Positions 37,826 through 53,006 of a stretch of 64,000 bases of DNA are shown here, piece by piece (positions within the stretch are counted from its first letter, which is position 1; each line of letters opens with the position of its first letter). Origin of the DNA: the human T2T-CHM13v2.0 reference genome, Homo sapiens. Both the position numbers and the translations under genes were made by a program. The notes under the pieces are model-generated. The model searched no databases and was not told the origin of the DNA. It saw only the letters and a program-made list of their open reading frames with translations. The stretch lies in NCBI RefSeq assembly GCF_009914755.1, contig NC_060931.1. The stretch is one strand, 5' to 3'.

Positions 37826-38491
37826 GCTTTGTGTTTTAAGGAAAAAAAAATCATGTTTTAGTTTCGTGCTGGTAATTTGAAGTAAGCAGATGTCTAGATA
37901 TAAGCTTGGAAACTGGCCAGTTGGAGATTGCTCACGGCTGCAATTGAAGACTCCAGCAGCCTCTTCTCCTCTTTGCTTCCATTTGGAGAGGAAGGCGTCA
38001 TAGGCTGTGTGACTTCCGTGGACGCGGGGCTTGGCACCGGCTTGCAGTTGGGATCAATCTTCAGTGGCGGTTTGGAGTGGGTCACGGTTCTTCCTGCTTG
38101 CCTTCCAGTTTAGTCCCTGACGTCTGCTCCCCAGGGCCCTGGCTCTTCCCCCACGCCTTCAGCCTGCACAGTCCCTTCTCTCATTCTCAGGCTGCAGAAC
38201 CTGGAAGTACAGTTGTCCCCCCTTACCCGCTGTTTCAGTTACCTGAGGTCAACCGTGGTCTGAAAATACTACATGGAAAATTCCGGAAATAAACAATTCG
38301 TAAGTTTTAAATTGCACGCTGTGATGAAATCTCGCGCTGTGCAGCCTGGGCAGTGAATCGTCCCCTTTGTTCAGCGTCCCCACGCTGTGGACGCTCCACA
38401 CCCATAGTCACTTAGTAGCTGGCTCGGTTATCAGATCGACCGTCACAGTGTCCCAGTGTATGTGTTCAAGTCACCCTTATTTTCCGTCATA

Positions 38492-38972
38492 ATGGCCCCA
38501 AAGCACAAGAGTAGTGATGCTGGGAATTTGGATAGGCCAAAGAGAAGCCGTAAAGTGCTTCCTCTAAGTGAAAAGGTGAAAGTTCTCGACTTAATCAGGA
38601 AAGACAAAAAATCCTATGCTGAGGTTGCTAAGATCTACGGGAAGAATGAATCTTCCATCCGTGAAATTGTGAAGAAGGAAAAAGAAATTCGTGCTAGTTT
38701 TGCTGTCTCACCTCCAACTGCTAAAGTGACGGCCACAGTGCGTGATAAGTGCTTAGTTAAGATGGAACAGGCACTGCATTTGTGGGTGGAAGAGATGAAC
38801 AGAAAACGTGTTCCCATTGACAGCAACATGTTGCGCCAGAAAGCTTTGAGCCTATACCAAGACTTCTGCAAGGGATGCTCTGAAACTGACACCAAGCCAT
38901 TTACTGCGAGTAAGGGATGGTTACACAGATTCAGGCATAGATTCTCACATCATTACAAGAAGAAGAAGAAGG
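38492..38972 (+). CDS. Putative alternative coding exon: Tigger-derived CENP-B-like DNA-binding domain (HTH_psq plus Tc5-type HTH), in frame with GTF2IRD2B exon 2
   Basis: 160 open codons MAPKHKSSDAGNLDRPKRSRKVLPLSEKVKVLDLI...FTASKGWLHRFRHRF...KKKKK; Kozak ATAATGG; phase-1 donor G|GTAAGT at 38972/38973; candidate acceptor CCCTTCTCTCATTCTCAG|G at 38190/38191. Confidence 0.65.
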
Positions 38973-39121
38973 GTAAGTACGTTACAACAAGTTATACTGA
39001 GAGAGAGAGAGATCACATTCACATAACATTACAGTACTTGATATTCTATTTTATTATTGTTGTTGTTAATTTCTTACTGTGCCTAATTTATAAATTAAAA
39101 TTCATCGTAGGTATGTATGTA

Positions 39122-39235
39122 CAGGTTAAACATCTCTAATCCAAAAATCCAAAATTTGAACCGTTCCAAAATCCAAAACTTATTGAATGCCGCTGACCTG
39201 ATGCAAGTTGAAAATTCCATACCTGTCACCTTTGC
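39122..39235 (+). mobile_element. Tigger4/MER46(Zombi)-like terminal fragment nested in the Tigger7
   Basis: TA|CAGGTTAAACATCTCTAATCCAAAAATCCAAAAT...CCAAAATCCAAAAC resembles the Tigger4 terminus. Confidence 0.65.
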
Positions 39236-49684: not shown

Positions 49685-50030
49685 AACTGTCCAGACTGGC
49701 TAGGGTGTGCTGGGTTGCAAACGACACCAGACTTTGGAGGATTAAAGGAGCAAAGACTTATTTCTTGGTTGCACTAAAAGTCTGTTATGCGTTGGCTGTG
49801 AGTCTGTTTCACGTTGTCTGCGATCTGGAACCCAGGCTGCTGTGGTGGTTCCATATGGAAAGTTCCCGGTGACCACCGAGGAGGAAGAGAGTGTGGCAAT
49901 ATGAAGTTACTTCCCTGACGTCCTCAGTCCACGAAAGTCATGTGGCCACACCACATTCAAGTGGGCAAGAAATCAAACCACATGATCTGAAAGAGACCTT
50001 TGTGAATATTTCCGAATAACCGCATGTGAC
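49685..50030. mobile_element. Old MLT1-type MaLR LTR
   Basis: Degenerate match including AAAGTCATGTGGCCACACC...TTCAAGTGGGCA. Confidence 0.5.
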
Positions 50031-52907
50031 CTCCACACTTAGCTCCCTTACATCTTCAGTTTTGGTCGGGCTCAGTGGCTCACGCCTGTAATCCCAGCAC
50101 TTTGGGAGGCTGAGGCGGGCAGATCACCTGAGGTCAGGAGTTTGAGACCAGCCTGACCAATATGATGAAACCCCTTCTCTACTAAAAATACAAAAATTAG
50201 CCGAGCATGGTGGCGCCTGCCTGTAATCCCAGCTACTTGGGAGGCTGAGGCAGGAGAATCGCTTGAACCCAGGAGGCAGAGGTTGCAGTGAGCAGAGATC
50301 ACACCACTTCACTCCAGCCTGGGTGACAAGAGTGAAACTCAATAGAAAAATCTTCTGTCTTCCTTCCGCATGCACACTCATGTTGATCTGTGTATCTTTT
50401 GCTTACAAATAGAATTAAGCCAAATATTGGAGGGATATGATGGTAGCTGACAGGTACTTAATTTGCATGTTCCATTTCAAAAAGTTGTTTTTAAGATTTC
50501 AGAGAATTTTTTTCAAAGAAATTTCTTAAAGCTAACTTCATTTAGAGCTTGGCAAAATGTATCAGCCAGGCACAGTAGCTCATGCCTGTCATCCCGGCAC
50601 TTAAGGAGGCCGACACAGGAGGATGGCTTAAGCCCAGGAATTTGAGATCAGCCTTGGCGATAGAGCAAGACCCCATCTTTACAAAAAAATGTTTAAAAAT
50701 TAGCTGAGCCTGGTAATACATGCCTGCAGTCCCATATGCAAAACATAGCTGGGGCTACACAGGAGGGTGAGGCAGGAAGATCACTTGAGCCTGAGAGTTG
50801 GAGGATGCAGTGAGCCATGATTGTGCCACTGCACTCCAGACTGGGTGACAGAGTGAGATCCTGTCTCTAAAAACAAAACAAACAAAAAGCTAAAAAAAAA
50901 AAAAAATCTTGGCAAAATTTAGAGTGAGCTTTTAGGAGACAGAAGTCCGAAGGGAAGTGGGAAAGAAGGAATTTTCTCTTCCTATCTTTAGCACACAAAC
51001 CCATTATATCCTTTCTATGTGTAAGTGAAATAGTGTGGTAGCTGTCACAACCATGCTGAAATCTGACTAAACATCATTGGATCAATAAGGTACAAATCCT
51101 CCTCTCCTCATCTGGGAAACAGCATGCTCCTCTCACATAATACCTGAGTTTGTTTTACGGGGAGGCCATGTGTAGGTTTAGTGGAAAATATATTCTATAA
51201 AGTTAGCATAAAAATAAATGTAAAAGGCTGGGTGCGGGCCGGGCGCGGTGGCTCACGCCTGTAATCCCAGCACTTTGGGAGGCTGAGGTGGGCGGATCAC
51301 GAGGTCAGGAGATCGAGACCATCCTGGCTAACATGGTGAAACCCCGTCTCTATTAAAAATACAAAAAATTAGCCAGGCGTGGTGGCAGGCGCCTGTAGTC
51401 CCAGCTACTCGGGAGGCTGAGGCAGGAGAATGGCGTGAACCTGGGAGGTGGAGCTTGCCGTGAGCGGAGATCGTGCCACTGCACTCCAGCCTGGGCGACA
51501 GAATGAGACTCTGTCTTAAAAAAAAAAAAGACTGGGTGCAGTGGCTCACGCCTGTAATCACAGCATTTTGGGAGGCCTAGGCAAGTGGATCACTTGAGGT
51601 CAGCAATTCGAGACTGGCCTGGTCCAACATGGTGAAACCCCATCTCTACTAAAAATACAAAAAGTAACCAGGCGTGGTGGTGGGAGCCTATAATCCCAGC
51701 TACTTGGGAGGCTGAGGCAGGAGAATCGCTTGAACCTGGGAGGCAGAGGTTGCAGTGAGCCAAGATCGCACCATTGCACTCCAGCCTGGGCGACAGAGCA
51801 AGACTCTGTTCCAGAAAAAAAGGCTGGGCATGGTGGCTCATGCCTATAATCCCAGCACTTTGGGAAGCCGAGGCAGGTGGATCACGTGAGACCAGGAGTT
51901 CAAGACCAGTATGGGCAACATGGCAAAACCCTGTTTCTACAAAATAAATAAATAAATAAATAAATCCAGGTTTGCTGGAGTGTGCTTGTAGTCCCAGCTG
52001 CTTCGGACCCTACAGTGAGTTGAGATTGCCCCACTGCACTCCAGCCTGAGTGACAGAGCAAGACCCTGTGTCTAAATAAATAAATAGTTTTTAAAAAAGA
52101 AAGTTGACTGGGCACGGTGGCTTACGCCTGTAATCCCAGCACTTTGGGAGGCCAAGGCGGACGGATCGCCTCAGGTCAGGAGTTCGAGACCAGCCTGGCC
52201 AACATGGCAAAACCTCATCTCCACTAAAAATACAAAAATTTGCTGGGTGTGGTGGCAGACACCTGTAATCCCAGCTACTCGGGAGACTGAGGCAGGAGAA
52301 TCACTTGAACCCAGGAGGTGGTGGTTGCAGTGAGCTGAGATCGTGCCATTGCACCAGCCTGGGTAACAAGAGTGAAACTCAGTCTCAAAAAAAAAAGAAA
52401 GAAAGAAAGAGAGTTAGCAGGGTTGGGTGTGGTGGCTCACACCTATAATCCCAGCACTCTGGGAGGCCAAGGAAGGCAGATTGCTTGAGCTCAGGAGTTT
52501 GAGACCAGCCTAGGTAACATGGCGAAACCCCGTCTTTACAAAAAATACAAAAATCAGCCAGGCGTGATGGCGCTCACCTGTAGTCCCAGCTGCTGGGGAG
52601 GCTGAGATGGGAGGACTGATTGAATCCAGGGGGCAGAGGTTACAGTAAGCTGTGATTGCGCCACTGCACTCCAGCCTGGGTGACAGAGCAAGATCCTGTC
52701 TCAAAATAAAACAAAATAAAATAAAATAAGTTAGCATTACTATTCAGGAGCTCATGGGCAAGTCACTAAATGCCTTTAAATTTCAGTTTCTTCATCTCAA
52801 GAGGAAAGTTTGAACTAGATCTTTGGTGAGCACCCTCACATCTCTAAATGTGGGTTTCAGACTCTGAATTTTTGCCACTTTCTTATTGCTTCTCTTGCAC
52901 AGGGATC

Positions 52908-53006
52908 ATGGCCCAGGTAGCAGTGTCCACCCTGCCTGTTGAAGAAGAGTCCTCCTCAGAGACCAGGATGGTGGTGACATTCCTCGTGTCTGCCCTCGAA
53001 TCCATG
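52908..53006 (+). CDS. GTF2IRD2B: GTF2I repeat domain-containing protein 2B, first canonical coding exon (exon starts 52903)
   Basis: TCTCTTGCACAG|GGATCATG acceptor; [33 protein letters not shown]; donor ATG|GTGAGA. The B paralog is assigned from the head-to-head position with RCC1L. Confidence 0.93.

What the first reader, a model, noticed from the sequence alone, without database searches (positions are those of the whole stretch)
38191..53006. Tigger transposase DNA-binding exon splices in frame onto GTF2IRD2B: a predicted double transposase chimera
Seen: ATG at 38492 in strong Kozak context opens 160 codons plus 1 nt, ending at consensus donor AAGG|GTAAGT. Exon 2 begins GG ATC ATG, so the joint reads ...[18 protein letters not shown]..., a 162-aa in-frame N-terminal extension. 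A strong polypyrimidine acceptor sits at 38190. Established: the peptide has the pogo/Tigger/CENP-B bipartite HTH architecture (LSEKVKVLD, LWV, LRQKA, FTASKGWLHRF), and GTF2IRD2 is known to be TFII-I repeats fused to a C-terminal Charlie8 hAT transposase. Inference: an isoform carrying domains from two unrelated DNA transposon superfamilies around a TFII-I core, which could retarget the factor and its dimer partners to Tigger7/MER44 TIRs. A long isoform may already exist in RefSeq/GENCODE, but I know of no functional description.
Basis: partly seen in the sequence, partly recalled or inferred. Interest (0 to 1): 0.9.

Follow-up and report, generated by a model that had tools for sequence, protein, structure and literature searches.

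The report
Known Tigger7 first exon of GTF2IRD2B
An old Tigger7 transposon supplies an alternative first exon that adds a 162-residue DNA-binding head to GTF2IRD2B, a real and conserved isoform that was already published in 2018 and is in the current gene annotation.

Summary
ATG 38492 opens 160 codons plus 1 nt, ending at donor AAGG|GTAAGT (38972/38973). The join to exon 2 (52903) reads ...[13 protein letters not shown] in frame. The peptide passes Pfam cut-offs for CENP-B_N and HTH_Tnp_Tc5.

It is not new. Dougherty et al. 2018 (Genome Res, PMC6169893) describe this isoform: a Tigger7-derived alternative first exon adding 162 N-terminal residues to GTF2IRD2, GTF2IRD2B and GTF2I. They report long-read cDNA, primate dN/dS 0.019 and relative testis expression. 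Their PacBio model GTF2IRD2B_1 has the same exon, start codon and next exon. RefSeq lists exon 37975-38972.

I add three things:
- Only 3 of 150 scored Tigger7-like copies in this genome keep the frame open: GTF2IRD2B, GTF2IRD2 and GTF2I.
- Predicted Tigger-TFII-I chimeras occur in 13 primate and 16 non-primate species.
- The human GTF2I and GTF2IRD2B coding cores are 99.4% identical, against about 75% in the flanks and 86% in exon 2. This points to gene conversion.

Binding of the domain to Tigger7 ends remains untested. I found no functional paper.

The parts
37975..38972 (+). Alternative first exon of GTF2IRD2B (998 nt): 517-nt leader plus 481 nt of coding sequence
   Evidence: Hub RefSeq table ('exons of other transcripts 37975-38972'). 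No AG precedes 37975. It has the same length and CDS offset as PacBio model GTF2IRD2B_1 in Dougherty 2018 supplement file 3.
38210..39121 (+). Tigger7-derived DNA transposon remnant. Its 5' end begins CAGTTGTCCCC after a TA. It is internally deleted and 3'-truncated where another repeat begins.
   Evidence: Dispersed genomic copies align to window 38208-39120 at 73-79% identity. The sequence was read. No inverted partner of the 5' end was found in the window. The family name Tigger7 comes from the paper.
38273..38491 (+). Three upstream ATGs with short frames in the leader: 38273 (27 codons), 38324 (10 codons, same frame) and 38460 (10 codons, TAA overlapping the main ATG)
38492..38972 (+). 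Coding part of the Tigger exon: 160 codons plus the first base of a split Gly codon
   Evidence: CDS start in the published model
38540..38701 (+). First helix-turn-helix (CENP-B_N / psq type), aa 17-70
   Evidence: Pfam PF04218, E 2e-6, 27.8 bits against a cut-off of 21.2. CENP-B chain 1hlv_A aligns to aa 20-151, E 1.7e-6.
38762..38965 (+). Second helix-turn-helix (HTH_Tnp_Tc5), aa 91-158
   Evidence: Pfam PF03221, E 4.5e-15, 55.8 bits against a cut-off of 22.2
38944..38972 (+). Primate-specific tail SHHYKKKKK, with an (AAG)n run whose length varies in whole codons between copies and species
   Evidence: Non-primate GTF2I models continue FRNRFGLKN... here instead. K runs of 3 to 5 residues are seen. 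Other genomic copies break alignment at query 744/745.
38973..38978 (+). Splice donor GTAAGT, lying in the 3' part of the transposon
   Evidence: exon end in RefSeq and in the PacBio model
38466..38974 (+). Tract of near-identity with the GTF2I-side Tigger copy (chr7:75852604-75853080), a putative gene-conversion tract
   Evidence: The CDS matches at 475 of 478 aligned bases. The flanks match at 60 of 79 and 87 of 116.
52903..53006 (+). Exon 2 of GTF2IRD2B. The acceptor ...cttgcacag| precedes it. The canonical ATG at 52908 becomes internal Met163 of the long isoform.
   Evidence: hub table
36533..36708 (+). Canonical non-coding first exon in a CpG-rich stretch, the alternative to the Tigger exon
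   Evidence: Hub table. G+C is 0.75-0.80 with CpG o/e 0.72-0.99 at 36600-36999, against 0.60 and 0.46 at 38000-38199.

Best explanation
Window 37975-38972 is a genuine, already described alternative first exon of GTF2IRD2B.

Its transcription start lies in unique DNA about 235 bp upstream of an internally deleted Tigger7 DNA transposon. The exon runs through the transposon's 5' end and its surviving transposase start codon (38492). It then encodes the transposase's two-helix-turn-helix DNA-binding domain (160 aa) and ends at a GTAAGT that belongs to the transposon's 3' part.

Splicing to exon 2 is in phase. A 162-residue head is therefore placed in front of the normal Met1 of GTF2IRD2B. The normal protein has a TFII-I-type N-terminus, two I-repeats and a hAT-derived C-terminus.

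Shown: the sequence anatomy, the domain identity, the transcript (published long reads), and the exceptional preservation of the frame.

Inferred:
- The long form is translated despite three upstream ATGs.
- The head still binds DNA sequence-specifically, most plausibly Tigger7-type terminal repeats. It would thereby give the TFII-I-family protein and its dimer partners a second kind of DNA address.

The same exon serves GTF2I and GTF2IRD2. The coding cores of the paralogous copies appear to be kept alike by gene conversion.
For: - Anatomy and frame.
- Domains above Pfam cut-offs. CENP-B DNA-binding domain 1hlv_A aligns over aa 20-151, E 1.7e-6.
- In a 25-sequence alignment of Tigger7-like proteins, the 21 invariant columns are by construction shared by the window's peptide.
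- Published transcript: Dougherty 2018 passages, model coordinates and read counts. Brain PacBio counts of Tigger7 against annotated first exon are 251 v 21 for GTF2IRD2B, 154 v 14 for GTF2IRD2 and 48 v 261 for GTF2I. Cortex short junction reads for GTF2IRD2B are 0 unique (97 multi-mapped) against 16 (199).
- Constraint: 3 of 150 scored genomic copies are open over about 160 aa. Against 7 unrelated copies, the coding part is 82-84% identical. The two 5' non-coding stretches are 62-78% identical in all 7. The 3' flank is 60-75% in the 3 of 7 where it aligned. The paper reports dN/dS 0.019 in primates.
- Breadth: predicted chimeras with the same junction to MAQVA occur in 13 primate species (GTF2IRD2/2B, and GTF2I in Pan and Callithrix). 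GTF2I chimeras occur in 16 non-primate species: 8 bats, pig, gray whale, 4 rodents and 2 lagomorphs.
- Concerted evolution: the human GTF2I-side and GTF2IRD2B copies differ by 2 synonymous changes, 1 non-synonymous change and one AAG codon in 481 nt. The flanks are 75-76% identical. P(<=2 synonymous differences at the flank rate) is 9e-10. Exon 2 of the two genes is only 86% identical. The marmoset GTF2I and GTF2IRD2B models share all 12 differences from the ape sequence, with none private.
Against: - No evidence of the protein itself was seen: no Ribo-seq and no peptides.
- Three upstream ATGs sit in a 517-nt leader.
- Use of the exon is strongly source-dependent. The paper counts 0 of 102 GTF2IRD2* nanopore reads in GM12878 and few unique short junction reads. 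The 92% in brain comes from probe-captured cDNA.
- If gene conversion from GTF2I maintains the GTF2IRD2B copy, its intact frame and low dN/dS need not reflect selection on GTF2IRD2B itself.
- The orthologues are automatic gene models, not experiments. The two marmoset models could in principle share one physical exon.
- DNA binding to Tigger7 ends is an analogy, not a result.
- In Microcebus the CENP-B_N score falls just under the cut-off (20.7 against 21.2).
Confidence: 0.85

Rival explanations
1. Passenger exon. The transcript is real, but the GTF2IRD2B copy is not itself under selection and is little translated. Its open frame is refreshed by gene conversion from the GTF2I copy, which is the selected one. 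In GTF2IRD2B the exon would act mainly as an alternative promoter or leader. Translation would be damped by upstream ATGs, or would start at the canonical ATG 52908.
For: The near-identity tract 38466-38974 stands against 75-76% identical flanks, and synonymous sites are also identical. All non-primate chimeras listed are GTF2I, none GTF2IRD2. There are three upstream ATGs. Humans carry Cys at residue 126, where 15 of the 19 other aligned sequences have Ser; the 4 exceptions have Arg or an unclear alignment.
Against: The main ATG has A at -3 and G at +4, so scanning ribosomes that reach it should use it. GTF2IRD2-type chimeras are predicted from lemurs to apes with no frame break, and the (AAG)n run changes only by whole codons. 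In the paper's brain long reads the Tigger exon is the majority first exon of GTF2IRD2/2B, but a minority in GTF2I.
Confidence: 0.12
2. Chance open frame in a decaying transposon that happens to lie upstream of exon 2, so the chimera would be an annotation artefact.
For: The window is 58% repeats. Tigger7 copies are numerous (3834 first-look DNA candidates), so some will sit in introns near exons.
Against: Only 3 of 150 scored copies are open over the domain, and all three sit upstream of TFII-I family exon 2 homologues. Full-length cDNA reads join the exons. The frame is kept in 29 species' models. The coding part is much better preserved than its own flanks.
Confidence: 0.02

Closest known systems
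Tigger7-derived N-terminal isoform of GTF2IRD2 / GTF2IRD2B / GTF2I (Dougherty et al. 2018, Genome Res 28:1566, PMC6169893)
   Same: It is the same object. The first exon, ATG, 162 added residues and two HTH domains all match.
   Different: Nothing in the anatomy differs. The passages I read speak of primates only. They do not mention non-primate GTF2I chimeras, or gene conversion between the GTF2I and GTF2IRD2 copies. I did not read the whole text or supplement file 1.
SETMAR (SET domain + Hsmar1 mariner transposase, primates)
   Same: A host gene captured a Tc1/mariner-superfamily transposase by splicing. It is listed with GTF2IRD2 as a classic transposase-capture gene. That its DNA-binding domain still recognises the family's terminal repeats is my recollection, not from a call.
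   Different: SETMAR keeps a whole transposase at the C-terminus. Here only the DNA-binding domain is kept, at the N-terminus, as an alternative first exon. The host protein also already carries a hAT-derived part.
CENP-B and the domesticated pogo/Tigger genes (TIGD1-7, JRK, POGK, POGZ)
   Same: The same bipartite CENP-B_N + HTH_Tnp_Tc5 DNA-binding architecture.
   Different: By my recollection, those are stand-alone genes or fusions that mostly retain the DDE-derived domain. This exon lacks any DDE_1 part, and it is one isoform of a TFII-I family gene.
KRABINER and other host-transposase fusion genes (Cosby et al., preprint 10.1101/2020.05.07.082677)
   Same: Transposase DNA-binding domain joined to host domains by the transposon's own or nearby splice sites (one passage read).
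   Different: The preprint's main text names GTF2IRD2 only as the known placental (hAT) capture, and has no occurrence of 'Tigger'.

Membership tests
pogo/Tigger transposase DNA-binding domain (CENP-B type) | N-terminal psq/CENP-B_N helix-turn-helix | tested here: met
   PF04218, aa 17-70, 27.8 bits against a cut-off of 21.2
pogo/Tigger transposase DNA-binding domain (CENP-B type) | Second helix-turn-helix, HTH_Tnp_Tc5 | tested here: met
   PF03221, aa 91-158, 55.8 bits against a cut-off of 22.2. 1hlv_A (CENP-B DNA-binding domain) aligns over both halves, E 1.7e-6.
pogo/Tigger transposase DNA-binding domain (CENP-B type) | Lies inside a dispersed Tigger element with its own terminal sequence | tested here: met
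   52 matches reported from 40 scored of 3834 first-look candidates, at 73-79% identity, from window about 38208 on. Only the 5' end is present; no 3' inverted partner was found.
pogo/Tigger transposase DNA-binding domain (CENP-B type) | Predicted three-dimensional fold of two three-helix bundles | not tested
   Structure prediction was not accepting jobs, so no model was made.
Active or complete pogo/Tigger transposase | DDE_1 catalytic domain | tested here: not met
   No PF03184 match in the 160 aa. The element is internally deleted after aa ~151. So this is a DNA-binding module, not a transposase.
Host-transposase fusion gene | Transposase-derived coding sequence spliced in frame to host exons in real transcripts | tested here: met
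   Frame checked. Transcripts come from the paper's long reads and GTF, not from data of my own.
Host-transposase fusion gene | Preservation beyond neutral decay across species | tested here: met
   3 of 150 copies open. CDS 82-84% against 62-78% in the two 5' non-coding stretches versus 7 unrelated copies; the 3' flank aligned in only 3 of 7, at 60-75%. 29 species' models. Published dN/dS 0.019. Caveat: gene conversion between paralogues.
Host-transposase fusion gene | The fused protein is made, and the captured domain binds DNA | not testable with these tools
   Seven literature searches found no proteomic, Ribo-seq or binding study of this head.
TFII-I family (GTF2I repeat proteins) | GTF2I-like repeats downstream of the head | tested here: met
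   PF02946 has 2 stretches in the Microcebus GTF2IRD2B model P0038 and 6 in the Pan GTF2I model P0014, both carrying the head. The human repeats lie outside the window.
hAT (Charlie8)-derived C-terminus of GTF2IRD2 | hAT transposase-derived domain at the C-terminus | not tested
   Outside the window. My Pfam run on P0038 gave only zf-C2H2_12 there at E<=0.001. The precomputed labels include PF14291. Papers call GTF2IRD2 a transposase capture. The name Charlie8 is recalled.

The most novel reading that the evidence does not exclude
The Tigger7 DNA-binding exon was domesticated once, in GTF2I, before bats, pigs, rodents, rabbits and primates diverged. In primates it acquired a shorter tail and a new donor. 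The roughly 510-bp coding core (38466-38974) has since been copied repeatedly between GTF2I and GTF2IRD2 by short-tract gene conversion, possibly onto an unrelated resident Tigger7 copy in GTF2IRD2 intron 1. If so, a single conversion event would have created a second transposase fusion in a gene that already carried a hAT-derived one. The long isoforms would then tether TFII-I-family dimers to the thousands of Tigger7-type terminal repeats, mainly in testis and brain.
Probability: 0.3. Interest if true: 0.5.

Novelty: already known. Interest (0 to 1): 0.15.

Why it matters
GTF2I and GTF2IRD2 lie in the Williams-Beuren region and are candidates for its social and cognitive traits. An isoform with an extra sequence-specific DNA-binding head could change which genes these factors reach. 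That point was made in print in 2018.

What remains open is whether the long form is made as protein, and what DNA it binds. My side results could guide such work. They are the deep conservation in GTF2I models outside primates and the signs of gene conversion between the paralogous exons. They are incremental and rest partly on automatic gene models.

Tried and rejected
1. Terminal inverted repeats. The repeat finder on 37900-39700 found none. A search for the 18-base 5' end on both strands, with up to 3 mismatches, found only itself. The element's 3' end is therefore lost or too diverged, and after about 39121 another repeat and an Alu follow.
2. Rejected, because the known exon starts at 37975 as a first exon. 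I cannot exclude minor transcripts that use it.
3. Chance open frame. Rejected.
4. Simple segmental duplication as the cause of the GTF2I/GTF2IRD2B likeness. Outside 38387-39088 the two loci share only Alu matches within +-1.5 kb. Within the element, the GTF2I copy's flanks (76% and 75%) are no closer than those of unrelated copies (66-78% in 7 of 7 for the 5' flank; 60-75% in the 3 of 7 where the 3' flank aligned). I cannot tell ancient duplication from independent insertion plus conversion.
5. My first flank comparison used minus-strand loci unturned and is void. One search replaces it.
6. Structure prediction of the head. The tool was not accepting jobs, so there was no fold test.
8. Search for functional follow-up. 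Searches found no paper on the function, translation or DNA targets of the Tigger head. The 2026 pangenome preprint mentions only possible GTF2IRD2-GTF2IRD2B conversion.
9. Canonical exon 1 has only two copies in the genome, GTF2IRD2B and GTF2IRD2. It gave no handle on GTF2I.

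
Full report
**Observation**

- ATG 38492 has A at -3 and G at +4, and opens a frame that stays open to 39139.
- The stretch up to the annotated exon end at 38972 is 481 nt, which is 160 codons plus one G.
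- The exon end is followed by GTAAGT.
- Exon 2 begins GGATCATGG at 52903, after a pyrimidine tract and CAG.
- The join therefore gives Gly, Ile, and then the annotated start Met at 52908.
- Predicted primate proteins read ...[20 protein letters not shown], exactly this junction.

Two details need correction.
The exon starts at 37975, where no AG precedes it, and it is a first exon.
- The 517-nt leader contains three upstream ATGs with short frames. The last ends in a TAA that overlaps the main ATG.

**What the peptide is**

Pfam gives two matches, both above the curated cut-offs.
- HTH_Tnp_Tc5: aa 91-158, E 4.5e-15, 55.8 bits against a cut-off of 22.2.
- CENP-B_N: aa 17-70, E 2e-6, 27.8 bits against a cut-off of 21.2.

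No DDE domain is present. The only solved relative by sequence is the CENP-B DNA-binding domain, 1hlv_A. It aligns over aa 20-151 with E 1.7e-6.

The DNA from about 38208 to 39120 matches dispersed copies across the assembly at 73-79% identity. That search reported 52 matches from 40 scored of 3834 first-look candidates. The element starts CAGTTGTCCCC at 38210, after a TA.

Its 3' end is not recognisable in the window. Another repeat and an Alu follow from about 39122.

The exon is thus the DNA-binding head of an internally deleted Tigger-family transposase. Its donor lies in the transposon's 3' part.

**Already in print**

A full-text search for GTF2IRD2 and Tigger found Dougherty et al. 2018, Genome Res 28:1566 (PMC6169893). 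The passages I read make the following statements.
- The N-terminus is conserved in primates, with dN/dS 0.019.
- The same holds for GTF2IRD2B, and at lower abundance for GTF2I.

Their supplementary GTF gives model GTF2IRD2B_1.
- The first exon is 998 nt.
- The CDS starts 517 nt into that exon.
- The next exon is 104 nt.

These match window 37975-38972, 38492 and 52903-53006.

Their Table S8 counts reads with the Tigger7 first exon against reads with the annotated first exon.

| Data source | GTF2IRD2B | GTF2IRD2 | GTF2I | GTF2IRD2* |
|---|---|---|---|---|
| Capture PacBio, brain (long reads) | 251 v 21 | 154 v 14 | 48 v 261 | 403 v 34 |
| Nanopore, GM12878 (long reads) | 0 v 0 | 0 v 0 | 6 v 214 | 0 v 102 |
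| Illumina junction reads, cortex: unique (multi-mapped) | 0 (97) v 16 (199) | 1 (97) v 4 (199) | 6 (0) v 472 (10) | not given |

RefSeq lists the exon (hub table).

I did not read the whole paper, and supplement file 1 could not be searched.

**My own checks of constraint**

*Open frames across the genome.* I searched the assembly with the 160-aa peptide and 150 matches were scored.
- Three span the domain without a stop: GTF2IRD2B (100% identity), GTF2IRD2 (100%), and a copy at chr7:75852604-75853080 (99%).
- By my reading of the table, the 13 other matches spanning at least 140 residues have 3-7 stops each.
- The other stop-free matches cover 106 residues or fewer.

The third copy lies on the plus strand, 38.3 kb upstream of the GTF2I homologue of exon 2. 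This fits the paper's statement about GTF2I.

*Comparison with unrelated copies.* Against seven unrelated Tigger7 copies, identity depends on the stretch compared.
- The window's coding part is 82-84% identical.
- Its two 5' non-coding stretches are 62-78% identical, in 7 of 7 copies.
- Its 3' flank aligned in only 3 of 7, at 60-75%.

This is what is expected if the coding part alone has been held near the ancestral sequence.

**Breadth across species**

The 'longer' protein search returned 143 hits and listed 120.

Chimeras of this head with TFII-I-family proteins are predicted in 13 primate species. These carry GTF2IRD2/2B names from apes to lemurs, and GTF2I in Pan and Callithrix.

Under GTF2I, or with a GTF2I repeat, they are also predicted in 16 non-primate species:
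- 8 bats
- pig
- gray whale
- 4 rodents
- 2 lagomorphs

The assignment of species to orders is my own knowledge. All the models I read join to (G)(I/T)MAQVA.

Non-primate models run further into the transposase (FRNRFGLKN...) before the junction. All primates share the short tail SHH(Y/H)K(n).

Glires share a four-residue insertion, and primates share SPPTAK and MEQALHLW. This pattern fits one orthologous insertion older than these orders.

These are automatic gene models. No non-primate hit is named GTF2IRD2. Mouse and rat do not appear among the 120 listed, which proves nothing.

**Signs of gene conversion**

*Human copies.* I aligned the human GTF2I-side copy with the window.
- Positions 38492-38972 match at 475 of 478 aligned bases.
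- The differences are two synonymous changes, one non-synonymous change (Cys126 here, Ser there) and one AAG codon.
- Identity falls to 60 of 79 just upstream (38387-38465).
- Identity falls to 87 of 116 from the donor onward.
- With 96 synonymous sites and the flank mismatch rate of 0.246, two or fewer synonymous differences has probability 9e-10.

Exon 2 of the two genes is only 86% identical. Outside the element, the loci share only Alu matches.

*Other primates.*
- The marmoset GTF2I and GTF2IRD2B models share all 12 differences from the ape sequence, and none is private.
- Apes share Asp38 in both genes.
- Chimpanzee has one private change in each gene.

*Interpretation.* Protein-level selection alone does not explain identical synonymous sites. 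Short-tract conversion between the paralogous exons does.

This qualifies the published dN/dS for GTF2IRD2, because the GTF2IRD2B copy could be maintained partly by conversion from GTF2I. The flanks of the GTF2I copy are no closer to the window than those of unrelated copies. I therefore cannot tell an ancient shared insertion from conversion onto an independent Tigger7 copy.

I found no paper on this. Searches for GTF2IRD2 with 'gene conversion' turned up only GTF2IRD2-GTF2IRD2B conversion.

**Mechanism and rivals**

*Best reading (0.85 for identity and structure; lower for function).* This is a real alternative first exon giving a 1111-residue-class isoform. That isoform has a pogo-type DNA-binding head, TFII-I repeats and a hAT-derived tail.

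The head probably retains sequence-specific DNA binding. All 21 columns invariant in a 25-sequence family alignment are kept. Its natural candidate targets are Tigger7-type terminal repeats.

Translation and binding are inferences.

*Passenger rival (0.12).* The GTF2IRD2B copy is kept open by conversion and is little translated, given the upstream ATGs and the source-dependent use of the exon.

*Chance open frame (0.02).* Rejected.

**Comparison and novelty**

The object is identical to the published isoform, so the finding is already known. It works like other transposase captures named in the papers I read: SETMAR, PGBD3-CSB and KRABINER.

It is a member of the CENP-B-type DNA-binding domain family by the Pfam tests. 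It is not a transposase, because no DDE domain is present.

Seven literature searches found no functional, proteomic or binding study of the head. The Cosby preprint's main text names GTF2IRD2 only as the known capture and never mentions Tigger. Its supplements were closed, so its tables may bear on this.

The structure prediction could not be run.

**Verdict**

The residual interest lies in the untested function. It also lies in two incremental points: the conservation in non-primate GTF2I models and the conversion between paralogous exons.

Noticed in passing
P0051 (from; sequence): An elephant model named ZNF404 isoform X1 (647 aa) joins a KRAB box to a nearly complete Tigger7-like transposase. 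The transposase part is 85% identical to the window's head and carries precomputed labels PF01352, PF03221 and PF03184. This is a possible KRAB-transposase fusion. A dugong model (P0053, 531 aa) also keeps a long Tigger7-like frame.
   Followed up: no
P0062, P0065, P0066, P0112 (P0062): Horse-family models named nucleoside diphosphate kinase A carry the same Tigger7 DNA-binding head (82-84% identical) in front of the NDK domain. This is either another predicted chimera or a gene-model artefact.
   Followed up: no
P0001, P0037, P0068, P0087, P0101: Close relatives of this mammalian Tigger7 head occur in a bony-tongue fish (81%, with the head duplicated in tandem), in orb-weaver spiders (62-69%) and in lizards (68-73%). 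That spread could reflect horizontal transfer of the family.
   Followed up: no
window 38867 (codon 126, TGC): Human GTF2IRD2B and GTF2IRD2 have Cys at residue 126. The human GTF2I copy and 14 of the 18 other species' sequences aligned have Ser; of the other four, Heterocephalus has Arg and three align unclearly. This is a recent non-synonymous change in an otherwise frozen domain.
   Followed up: partly
window 38944-38972: The (AAG)n run before the donor varies by whole codons. It gives K5 here, K4 in the human GTF2I copy and in Symphalangus, and K3 in Chlorocebus. It is a microsatellite inside the coding tail that has never broken the frame in the sequences seen.
   Followed up: partly
L003:1400-1500 (chr7, just upstream of the GTF2I-side copy): The GTF2I-side copy lacks the window's 5' 177 bp. 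Instead it is preceded by a stretch that reads like a Tigger7 end in the opposite orientation, and it keeps its own 3' end. The two copies differ structurally outside the shared core.
   Followed up: partly
window 52880-53030 as query: The exon 2 region matches about 40 further places at 70-84% identity, on chromosomes 9, 13, 14, 15, 21, 22 and others, many near chromosome ends or centromeres by coordinate. These are presumably spread copies of a TFII-I-family fragment in duplicated regions.
   Followed up: no
window 39122-39520: Directly after the Tigger7 piece comes a different transposon-like end (CAGGTTAAACATCTCTAATCC...), then an Alu in reverse orientation. Their family names were not determined.
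   Followed up: no
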